Shown piece after piece: positions 25,779 to 28,700 of a stretch of 64,000 nt of DNA; positions within the stretch are counted from its first letter, which is position 1, and each line of letters starts with the position of its first letter. The notes beneath the pieces are model-generated. The model worked only from the letters and a program-made list of their open reading frames with translations. It was not told the origin of the DNA and did no database searches. This DNA is from the human T2T-CHM13v2.0 reference genome, Homo sapiens. The translations under genes and the position numbers were made by a program. Location: the NCBI RefSeq assembly GCF_009914755.1, contig NC_060927.1; one strand, 5' to 3'.

Positions 25779-28700
25779 AAAATCTAGAAGAAATGGATAA
25801 ATTCCTCGACACATACACCCTCCCAAGACTAAACCAGGAAGAAGTTGAATCTCTGAATAGACCAATAACAGGCTCTGAAATTGAGGCAATAATTAATAGC
25901 TTACCAACCAAAAAAATCCAGGACCAGATGGATTCACAGCCGAATTCTACCAGAAGTGCAAGGAGGAGCTGGTACCATTCCTTCTGAAACTATTCCAATC
26001 AATAGAAAAAGAGGGAATCCTCCCTAACTCATTTTATGAGGCCAGCATCATCCTGATACCAAAGCCTGGCAGAGACACAACAAAAAAAGACAATTTTAGA
26101 CCAATATCCCTGATGAACATCGATGCAGAAATCCTCAATAAAATACTGGCAAACCGAATCCAGCAGCACATCAAAAAGCTTATCCACCATGATCAAGTTG
26201 GCTTCATTCCTGGGATGCAAGGCTGGTTCAACATACGCAAATCAATAAACGTAATCCAACATATAAACAGAACCAACGACAAAACCACATGATTATCTCA
26301 ATAGATGCAGAAAAGACCTTTGACAAAATTCAACCCTTCATGCTAAAAACTCTCAATAAATGAGGTATTGATGGGACATATCTCAAAATAATAAGAGCTA
26401 TCTATGACAAACCCACAGCCAATATCATACTGAATGGGCAAAAACTGGAAGCACTCCCTTTGAAAACTGGCACAAGACAGGGATGCCCTCTCTCACCACT
26501 CCTATTCAACATAGTGTTGGAAGTTATGGCCAGGGCAATTAGGCAGGAGAAGGAAGTAAAGGGCATTCAATTAGGAAAAGAGGAAATCCAATTGTCCCTG
26601 TTCGCAGATGACATGATTGTGTATCTAGAAAACCCCATCGTCTCAGCCCAAAATCTCCTTAAGCTGATAGGCAACTTCAGCAAAGTCTCAGGATACAAAA
26701 TCAATGTGCAAAAATCACAAGCATTCTTATATACCAATAAAAGACAAACAGAGAGCCAAATCATGAGTGAACTCCCATTCACAATTGCTTCAAAGAGAAT
26801 AAAATACCTAGGAATCCAACTTACAAGGGATGTGAAGGACCTCTTCAAGGAGAACTACAAACCACTACTTAATGAAATAAAAGACGATACAAACAAATGG
26901 AAGAACATTCCATGCTCATGGGTAGGAAGAATCAATATCGTGAAAATGGCCATACTGCCCAAGGCAATTTATAGATTCAACGCCATCCCCATCAAGCTAC
27001 CAATGACTTCCTTCACAGAATTGGAAAAAACTACCTTAAAGTTCACATGGAACCAAAAAAGAGCCTGCATTGCCAAGTCAATCCTAAGCCAAAAGAACAA
27101 AGCTGGAGGCATCATGCCACCTGACTTCAAACTATACTACACAAGGCTACAGTAATCAAAACAGCATGGTACTGGTACCAAAACAGAGATATTGACCAAT
27201 GGAACAGAACAGAGCCCTCAGAAATAATGCCGCATATCTACAACTATCTGATCTTTGACAAACCTGAGAAAAACAAGCAATGGGGAAAGGATTCCCTATT
27301 TAATAAATGGTGCTGGGGAAACCTGGCTAGCCATATGTAGAAAGCTGAAACTGGATCCCTTCCTTATACCTTATACAAAAATTAATTCAAGATGGATTAA
27401 AGACTTAAATGTTAGACCTAAAACCATAAAAACCCTAGAAGAAAACCTAGGCAATACCATTTAGGACATAGGCATGGGCAAGGACTTCATGTCTAAAACA
27501 CCAAAAGCAATGGTAACAAAAGACAAAATTGACAAATGGGATCTAATTAAAATAAAGAGCTTTTGCACAGCAAAAGAAACTACCATCAGAGTGAACAGGC
27601 AACCTACAGAATGGGAGAAAATTTTTGCAATCTACTCATCTGACAAAGGACTAATATCCAGAATCTACAAAGAATCAAACAGATTTACAAGAAAAAACAA
27701 ACAACCCCATCAAAAAGTGGGTGAAGGATATGAACAGACACTTCTCAAAGGAAGACATTTATGAAGCCAAAAGACACATGAAAAAATGCTCATCATCACT
27801 GGCCATCAGAGACATGCAAATCAAAACCACAATGAGATACCATCTCACACCAGTTAGAATGGCGATCATTAAAAAGTCAGGAAACAACAGGTGCTGGAGA
27901 GGATGTGGAGAAATAGGAACACTTTTACACTGTTGGTGGGACTGTAAACTAGTTCAACCATTGTGGAAGTCAGTGTGGTGATTCCTCAAGGATCTAGAAC
28001 TAGAAATACCATTTGACCCAGCCATCCCATTACTGGGTATATACCCAAAGATTATGAATCATGCTGCTATAAAGACACATGCACACGTGTGTTTATTGCG
28101 GCACTATTTACAATAGCAAAGACTTGGAACCGACCCAAATGTCCAACAATGATAGACTGGATTAAGAAAATGTGGCACATATACACCATGGAATACTATG
28201 CAGCCATAAAAATTGATGAGTTCATGTCCTTTGTAGGGACATGGATGAAGCTGGAAACCATCATTCTCAGCAAACTATCGCAAGGAGAAAAAACCAAACA
28301 CTGCATGTTGTCACTCATAGCTGGGAATTGAACAATGAGAACACATGGACACAGGAAGGGGAACATCAAACACCGGGGCCTGTTGTGGGGTGGGGGGAGT
28401 GGGGAGGGATAGCGTTAGGAGATATACCTAATGCTAAATGATGAGTTAATGGGTGCAGCACACCAACATGGCACATGTATACATATGTAACAAACCTGCA
28501 CGTTGTGCACATGTACCCTAAAACTTACAGTATAATTTAAAAAAATAATAAAAATAAAACATATTCACATATTTACGTATTCATGTATTTAAAATATATT
28601 CATTTATTTTACACTATGTGCAACTCATTTTTCTACTTAAGAATTAGAGAGATGACATTTCGGAGGCCCCTAATTCCAAATGCTGCCGCCTGTTTTTAGT

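What the first reader, a model, noticed from the sequence alone, without database searches (positions are those of the whole stretch)
26914..27052. Gene-conversion tract 1: 139 bp identical between two inverted L1s of different subfamilies
Seen: 26914-27052 (+) is base-for-base the reverse complement of 59084-59222. By my count the next 270 bp differ at about 9% and the preceding 190 bp at about 5%. Both copies carry five alleles that differ from the recalled L1PA consensus: 26965/59171, 26981/59155, 27010/59126, 27035/59101 and 27046/59090. These show in both ORF translations as KAIYRF...PMTSFTEL...LKFTW versus consensus KVIYRF...PMTFFTEL...LKFIW. Elsewhere the elements have different subfamily diagnostics (WKSVW vs WKTVW, ATGTCT vs ATGACT, different 5' ends). 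Inference: post-insertion non-allelic gene conversion across about 32 kb, probably left to right.
Basis: partly seen in the sequence, partly recalled or inferred. Interest (0 to 1): 0.85.

Follow-up and report, generated by a model that had tools for sequence, protein, structure and literature searches.

The report
Gene conversion between two inverted L1s
Two separately inserted, oppositely oriented L1 retrotransposons 32 kb apart in an FHIT intron have exchanged a patch of about 140-230 bases by non-allelic gene conversion, a well-supported example of a known process.

Summary
Window 26914-27052 (+) is the exact reverse complement of 59084-59222. It is the longest exact run in a 5448-column, 91.8%-identical alignment of two L1s (next longest 78; permutation P = 0.0026).

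Both elements are full length, and each has its own matching target-site duplication. They are therefore independent insertions, and no crossover or inversion has occurred.

All five shared alleles are real and are T>C in L1 sense. They are essentially absent from 25-28 relatives chosen on A's flank and 16 chosen on B's flank. A genome-wide scan of T2T-CHM13 with the 91-mer spanning them (up to 3 mismatches) finds only these two loci.

Non-allelic, non-crossover gene conversion is the best explanation (about 0.9).

Direction is probably A to B (left to right, about 0.7). B carries A-type subfamily states at 26922 and 27078, whereas copies sharing B's downstream haplotype do not. The tract is therefore likely 157-232 bp, with 3-6 later differences.

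The uniform T>C cluster is nominally non-random and unexplained. Primate orthologues could not be examined.

This is a clean case of a known process, of modest interest.

The parts
26914..27052 (+). Identical core of the conversion tract in L1 copy A (ORF2, L1 sense on +)
   Evidence: exact 139-bp match to the reverse complement of 59084-59222. It carries T>C at 26965, 26981, 27010, 27035 and 27046.
59084..59222 (-). Identical core of the conversion tract in L1 copy B (L1 sense on -)
   Evidence: the only other locus in the genome with this sequence.
26886..27117 (+). Largest tract compatible with A as donor. The smallest is 26922-27078, set by the A-type diagnostic states found in B.
   Evidence: It is bounded by A-private sites not present in B (26885, 27118). 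There are 6 A/B differences in 232 columns, and 3 in the 157 columns of 26922-27078.
20750..28560 (+). L1 copy A: full length, flanked by the 14-bp duplication TAAAACATATTCAC, interrupted by a 1657-bp insertion at 24120-25776
   Evidence: The best genome-wide matches of its 3' flank are 95-96% identical.
57575..63732 (-). L1 copy B: full length, flanked by the 12-bp duplication ATAGTCATCATG; older or more diverged
   Evidence: The best genome-wide matches of its 3' flank are 92-94% identical and lie at other loci. It has 115 private changes against A's 44 in 2685 polarised columns.
28057..28131 (+). Candidate second short tract, with shared derived alleles at 28089 (A>G) and 28109 (C>T)
   Evidence: 0 of 29 A-relatives carry either allele; 0 of 16 (28089) and 1 of 16 (28109) B-relatives do; all 12 other copies fetched carry only one of the two alleles.

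Best explanation
Two L1 retrotransposons inserted independently and in opposite orientation in one FHIT intron. A is younger and lies at 20750-28560 on the + strand. B is older and lies at 63732-57575 on the - strand. Later, a break or lesion in one copy was repaired by homologous recombination using the other copy, 32 kb away on the same chromosome, as template. The repair did not involve a crossover. It copied a short patch of ORF2 and carried along five T>C changes that had been private to the donor. The donor was most likely A and the recipient B. The patch then spans at least 26922-27078 and at most 26886-27117, and the 139-bp identical run is the part that has not mutated since. Shown: independence of the insertions, uniqueness of the haplotype, mosaic subfamily states in B, and absence of a crossover. 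Inferred: the repair pathway, the direction and the date.
For: (1) Independent insertions. Each element has its own matching target-site duplication, the first 1.25 kb are only 85.8% identical, and both are about 6.15 kb long. (2) Excess identity. The 139-bp exact run has P = 0.0026 by permutation. None of 350 pairs of one A-relative and one B-relative is identical over the same 139 bp (mean 7.05 differences, minimum 1). (3) Shared derived alleles private to the pair. Among relatives chosen on A's 3' flank, C occurs in 0 of 26, 0 of 27, 0 of 28, 0 of 28 and 1 of 28 at the five sites. Among relatives chosen on B's 3' flank it occurs in 1, 0, 0, 0 and 2 of 16. The best other genomic matches to the 139-mer have 4 mismatches, all at these sites (40 of 1391 candidates scored). 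The 91-mer pattern with up to 3 mismatches hits only the two loci and no reversed control. (4) Non-crossover. Target-site duplications match within each element. A has few and B many private changes on both sides of the tract. (5) Direction. B has G at 26922 and T at 27078, as 23 of 25 and 26 of 28 A-relatives do. The copies that share B's downstream haplotype (27970 A, 28214 G, 28289 G) have A at both sites. The three B-panel loci with T at 27078 (L064, L065, L070; the latter two also have G at 26922) carry the A-like downstream haplotype. (6) Precedent. A break in a chromosomal LINE can be repaired by conversion from endogenous LINEs, with tracts down to 13 bp (Tremblay et al. 2000, seen only as cited in PMC1920257, passages). 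Non-allelic conversion is described among Alu copies (PMC6598467, passages).
Against: Direction is not secure. Five shared derived alleles in 139 bp exceed what A's private density predicts (44 of 2685 columns, 1.64%, about 2.3 expected). They fit B's density better (115 of 2685, 4.3%, about 6 expected). B also has a sixth T>C at 26913, directly beside the tract. If A is the donor and the tract reaches 27078, then B's 27053 C>G and the two opposite decays of the CpG at 27066/27067 must postdate the event, although the 139-bp core has no change. The genome DNA searches score only 40 of 1391 to 17902 candidates. A diverged third carrier with more than 3 extra mismatches in the 91-mer would therefore be missed. 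No orthologue from another primate and no second human assembly was available, so neither the pre-conversion state nor the correctness of the assembly was checked directly.
Confidence: 0.88

Rival explanations
1. Gene conversion occurred in the opposite direction. B was the donor, the five T>C changes were B's private mutations, and A was the recipient. The tract would then be confined to 26914-27052.
For: Five derived alleles in 139 bp match B's private density (about 6 expected) better than A's (about 2.3 expected). In B the T>C run has six members, 26913-27046 (order-shuffling P = 0.003 against 0.0095 for A). T>C makes up 15 of 111 of B's private changes and 4 of 42 of A's. The identical run is bounded on both sides by B-private sites (26913, 27053), as expected if those were simply not transferred.
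Against: B would then have to carry A-type states at 26922 and 27078 natively. Eleven of 12 (26922) and 13 of 13 (27078) panel copies with a B-like downstream haplotype have the other state. Site 27078 lies outside a B-to-A tract, so it would need a separate explanation.
Confidence: 0.2
2. There was no exchange. Both copies descend from one L1 source lineage or subfamily that carried the five alleles.
For: Single members of the five-allele set occur in scattered copies: 1 to 15 of 27 in the panel that was selected for similarity to the tract.
Against: No copy other than A and B matches the 91-mer within 3 mismatches genome-wide. Panels chosen without regard to the tract have T at all five sites almost without exception. 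A and B differ at 8% elsewhere, at subfamily-diagnostic sites and in their nearest relatives.
Confidence: 0.02
3. The identity is chance, in a slowly changing segment of ORF2.
For: The segment is somewhat conserved. Five of 300 pairs of A-relatives are identical over it, when both are unmutated.
Against: A and B are identical in a derived state at five sites, not in the ancestral state. About 0.6 parallel shared changes are expected over the whole 2.7 kb (my estimate from the densities). None of 350 cross-panel pairs is identical. Permutation gives P = 0.0026.
Confidence: 0.01
4. The patch is an assembly or polishing artefact that copied reads of one L1 onto the other.
For: None from the calls. 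It could not be tested here.
Against: The patch is 139 bp inside elements that are 92% identical and 32 kb apart, far shorter than the long reads used for such assemblies (established knowledge, not tested). Both copies carry alleles found nowhere else, so one of them must be genuine. The flanks show normal divergence.
Confidence: 0.03

Closest known systems
Repair of a break in a chromosomal LINE by gene conversion from endogenous LINE copies (Tremblay, Jasin and Chartrand 2000, mouse cells; seen only as cited in PMC1920257)
   Same: A LINE copy is used as donor for another LINE copy. The tracts are short and there is no crossover.
   Different: That work used an induced break in cultured mouse cells with donors anywhere in the genome. 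Here the event is a fixed or segregating germline one in human, between two specific neighbouring inverted copies, and is inferred from sequence alone.
Non-allelic gene conversion among Alu elements (Kass 1995, Roy 2000, Aleshin and Zhi 2010, as summarised in PMC6598467, passages read)
   Same: Mosaic patterns of subfamily-diagnostic sites appear in one copy. Exchange is favoured between nearby similar copies.
   Different: The elements are Alu, not L1. The elevated rates reported there are for copies less than 10 kb apart, whereas here the copies are 32 kb apart and 92% identical.
Non-allelic gene conversion among human LTR elements (PMC4921805; search listing and start of abstract only)
   Same: Ectopic conversion between dispersed retroelement copies, detected within one genome.
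   Different: A different element class. I did not read its methods or results.
L1-mediated non-allelic homologous recombination giving deletions or inversions (transposable-element-mediated rearrangements, PMC9675761; listing and start of abstract only)
   Same: The substrate is the same: two homologous L1 copies on one chromosome.
   Different: Those events are crossovers that rearrange the DNA. Here the matching target-site duplications of each element show that no inversion of the spacer occurred.

Membership tests
Non-allelic (ectopic) gene conversion between dispersed repeats | The two copies are independent paralogues, not one duplicated segment | tested here: met
   There are different matching target-site duplications (14 bp for A, 12 bp for B). 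Homology ends at the element ends.
Non-allelic (ectopic) gene conversion between dispersed repeats | A stretch of identity significantly longer than the overall divergence allows | tested here: met
   A 139-bp run against the next longest of 78; permutation P = 0.0026. None of 350 cross-panel pairs is identical.
Non-allelic (ectopic) gene conversion between dispersed repeats | Derived variants shared by the pair and absent from other family members | tested here: met
   Five T>C sites. A-flank panel: 0 of 26, 0 of 27, 0 of 28, 0 of 28 and 1 of 28. B-flank panel: 1, 0, 0, 0 and 2 of 16. The 91-mer within 3 mismatches is found only at the two loci.
Non-allelic (ectopic) gene conversion between dispersed repeats | Mosaic of subfamily-diagnostic states in the recipient | tested here: met
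   B has A-type states at 26922 and 27078 but B-type states at 27970, 28214 and 28289. The panels are small: 16 B-relatives.
Non-allelic (ectopic) gene conversion between dispersed repeats | Flanks not exchanged (non-crossover) | tested here: met
   Target-site duplications match within each element. Private-change densities of A and B are the same on both sides of the tract.
Non-allelic (ectopic) gene conversion between dispersed repeats | The pre-conversion state is seen in an orthologous locus of an outgroup species or another haplotype | not testable with these tools
   No primate genome and no second human assembly is held.
Named L1PA subfamilies (reader: L1PA4/L1PA5) | Match to the curated subfamily consensus and its diagnostic sites | not testable with these tools
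   No repeat library is held. Only relative evidence is available: A's flank best hits are 95-96% identical, B's are 92-94%, at different loci.
Strand-coordinated hypermutation cluster (editing-type or error-prone synthesis) | A run of one substitution type on one strand beyond what the element's own spectrum gives | tested here: met
   A run of 5 (A lineage, P = 0.0095) or 6 (B lineage, P = 0.003) T>C by shuffling the order of changes. The test was chosen after seeing the data.
Strand-coordinated hypermutation cluster (editing-type or error-prone synthesis) | Sequence context typical of a known deaminase or polymerase | tested here: inconclusive
   Read by eye: the neighbours of the six sites are mixed. 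The preferences I compared them with are recalled, not from a call.

The most novel reading that the evidence does not exclude
The five T>C changes (six if 27118 in A or 26913 in B is counted) are not five independent mutations. They would be one strand-coordinated hypermutation event in the donor L1, which gene conversion then duplicated into the second copy. Possible causes are deamination or misincorporation on the first-strand cDNA at retrotransposition, or error-prone repair synthesis. The pair would then preserve a rare fossil of a clustered A:T-targeted mutational event together with a dated copy of it.
Probability: 0.15. Interest if true: 0.5.

Novelty: new member of a known kind. Interest (0 to 1): 0.3.

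Why it matters
This is a clean, internally controlled example of L1-to-L1 gene conversion over 32 kb between inverted copies. Donor-private markers, mosaic subfamily sites and intact target-site duplications all point the same way.

Such events blur L1 subfamily assignment and age estimates that are based on divergence. They also show that dispersed L1s serve as repair templates in the germline. The locus lies inside FHIT, which I recall (not tested here) as the seat of the fragile site FRA3B, where breaks are frequent.

The process itself is established, so the finding adds a case and does not add a principle.

Tried and rejected
1. Multiple alignment of whole 3.1-kb loci was unusable, because many loci are truncated or interrupted. 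I replaced it with pairwise projection onto A's coordinates.

2. The first panel (L003-L030) had been selected by similarity to the tract itself. It is therefore biased towards carrying single derived alleles. I used it only together with panels chosen on the flanks.

3. My first reading of direction rested on the whole B-flank panel majority. That was unsafe, because three of the 16 loci are really A-like. Sorting the panel by downstream haplotype restored the inference.

There were no matches.

5. I considered transcription-strand asymmetry as a clue to the origin of the T>C changes. Neither element's private spectrum shows the asymmetry, so I dropped it.

6. I considered GC-biased repair. 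All five changes are weak-to-strong, but that would predict A>G as often as T>C.

8. The literature search for FRA3B with LINE-1 recombination gave two papers, which I did not read. No paper describing this particular pair appeared in the listings of the four searches that ran (15, 15, 15 and 2 papers listed). None of those searches was aimed at this locus.

Full report
**Observation**

Window 26914-27052 on the + strand is, base for base, the reverse complement of 59084-59222. The match cannot be extended on either side.

I aligned the two L1 elements over 5448 homologous columns. They are 91.8% identical, with 449 differences. The 139-bp run is the longest exact run; the next longest are 78 and 73. 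Redistributing the differences at random 20000 times gave a run of 139 or more in 0.26% of trials (0.18% for the 3' half alone).

There are 9 differences in the preceding 190 bp (4.7%) and 26 in the following 270 (9.6%).

**The two elements**

A runs from 20750 to about 28560 on the + strand. It is flanked on both sides by TAAAACATATTCAC. B runs from 63732 to about 57575 on the - strand and is flanked by ATAGTCATCATG.

Both are about 6.15 kb once a 1657-bp insertion in A (24120-25776) is set aside. Their first 1.25 kb are only 85.8% identical. Homology stops at the element ends.

They are therefore two separate retrotransposition events. Because each element keeps its own pair of duplications, no crossover has inverted the 29-kb spacer.

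A genome search with A's 3' flank gave best hits of 95-96% identity. The same search with B's 3' flank gave 92-94%, at other loci (only 40 of 10041 and 40 of 17902 candidates were scored).

Against the majority state of A's relatives, A has 44 private changes and B has 115, in 2685 polarised columns. B is thus the older or more diverged copy. It coincides with a site that separates the two sets of relatives (27970). I could not name the subfamilies, because no repeat library is held.

**The five alleles**

The window's own assembly can be searched. The 139-mer has two exact matches. The next best copies have 4 mismatches, and those fall on 26965, 26981, 27010, 27035 and 27046 (40 of 1391 candidates scored). 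That panel was chosen for likeness to the tract, so I built two further panels without regard to it.

| Site | C among relatives found with A's 3' flank | C among relatives found with B's 3' flank |
|---|---|---|
| 26965 | 0 of 26 | 1 of 16 |
| 26981 | 0 of 27 | 0 of 16 |
| 27010 | 0 of 28 | 0 of 16 |
| 27035 | 0 of 28 | 0 of 16 |
| 27046 | 1 of 28 | 2 of 16 |

A pattern scan of the whole genome with the 91 bases spanning the five sites, allowing 3 mismatches, returned only the two loci. It returned nothing for the reversed control.

None of 350 pairs made of one A-relative and one B-relative is identical over the 139 bp (mean 7.05 differences, minimum 1).

The pair is therefore identical in a derived state that no other sampled copy has. 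From the private densities, I estimate that only about 0.6 sites would be shared by parallel mutation over the whole 2.7 kb. Five within 82 bp cannot arise that way. Sequence has passed between A and B.

At the protein level both copies read [14 protein letters not shown] and LKFTW. The solved human ORF2 protein has V, F and I at those places. Two of the five changes are synonymous.

**Direction and extent**

Two considerations pull in opposite ways.

For B as donor:
- Five derived alleles in 139 bp are more than A's private density predicts (about 2.3) and close to what B's predicts (about 6).
- B has a further T>C at 26913, right beside the tract.

For A as donor:
- B carries G at 26922 and T at 27078, as do 23 of 25 and 26 of 28 A-relatives.
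- When the 16 B-flank loci are sorted by their downstream haplotype, those that resemble B there (27970 A, 28214 G, 28289 G) have A at both sites.
- The three B-flank loci with T at 27078 (L064, L065, L070; the latter two also have G at 26922) turn out to be A-like downstream.

So B is a mosaic, with an A-type island between at least 26922 and 27078. I weigh this more heavily and put A to B at about 0.7.

The tract would then be 157 bp at the least and 232 bp at the most (26886-27117). It is bounded by the A-private sites 26885 and 27118, which B lacks. It holds 3 to 6 later differences, two of which are opposite decays of one CpG at 27066/27067.

Using a rate of about 0.17% per million years (recalled, not from a call), A would be roughly 10 million years old. 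On the same rate the event would be a few million years younger. This is a rough inference only.

**The T>C cluster**

All five shared changes are T>C in L1 sense. T>C makes up 4 of 42 of A's and 15 of 111 of B's other private changes.

Shuffling the order of changes gives a same-type run of this length in 0.95% of trials for the A lineage (run of 5). For the B lineage (run of 6, with 26913) the figure is 0.3%. These tests were chosen after seeing the data.

The neighbouring bases show no clear signature. I leave the cluster unexplained. The boldest reading still open is a single clustered mutational event in the donor.

**Other traces**

A and B also share A>G at 28089 and C>T at 28109. Neither allele is seen in 29 A-relatives. 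Among 16 B-relatives, 0 carry the first and 1 carries the second.

The best other genomic matches to that 75-mer differ from it at one base. All 12 that I fetched carry only one of the two alleles (40 of 724 candidates scored). This looks like a second, shorter tract.

A also has the B-type state at 27989. I did not polarise the 5' half of the elements.

**Comparison with what is known**

Conversion of a broken LINE from other LINE copies has been shown in mouse cells. I saw Tremblay et al. 2000 only as cited in PMC1920257 (passages). Non-allelic conversion among Alu copies, with mosaic diagnostic sites and a preference for nearby copies, is reviewed in PMC6598467 (passages). A 2026 preprint lists gene conversion among the processes that erase fine structure in old L1s (PMC13192797, one passage).

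The present case is a new, well-marked instance of that known process.

**Limits**

No primate orthologue, no other human haplotype and no raw reads could be examined. The date, the direction and the exclusion of an assembly error therefore rest on inference. The genome DNA searches are not exhaustive.

Noticed in passing
window 24120-25776: A 1657-bp insertion interrupts L1 copy A and is absent from B. It holds Alu-like stretches (about 24213-24457 and 25563-25749) and a tandem array with units of 37-40 bp at 24563-24984. This resembles the layout of an SVA element as I recall it.
   Followed up: partly
window 28057-28131 (B: 58084-58010): Candidate second conversion tract. A and B share A>G at 28089 and C>T at 28109, which are absent from both panels. 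All 12 other genomic copies fetched carry only one of the two alleles. A and B differ inside it at 28099.
   Followed up: partly
window 26913-27118: All five shared changes are T>C in L1 sense. One further T>C is private to B at 26913 and one is private to A at 27118. The run is nominally non-random (P = 0.003-0.01, test chosen after seeing the data) and its cause is unknown.
   Followed up: partly
window 27989: A carries the state typical of B's relatives (A in 12 of 16) and not that of its own relatives (G in 27 of 29). This could be a very short transfer in the opposite direction, or natural variation.
   Followed up: no
window 26199, 27671, 28213: Isolated sites where A and B share a state that is rare in the panels. 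About 0.6 such sites are expected from parallel mutation (my estimate), so some may be further traces of exchange.
   Followed up: no
window 20750-22000 versus 63732-62489: The 5' ends of the two full-length L1s are only 85.8% identical, against about 92% for the rest. This fits different 5' UTR types.
   Followed up: no
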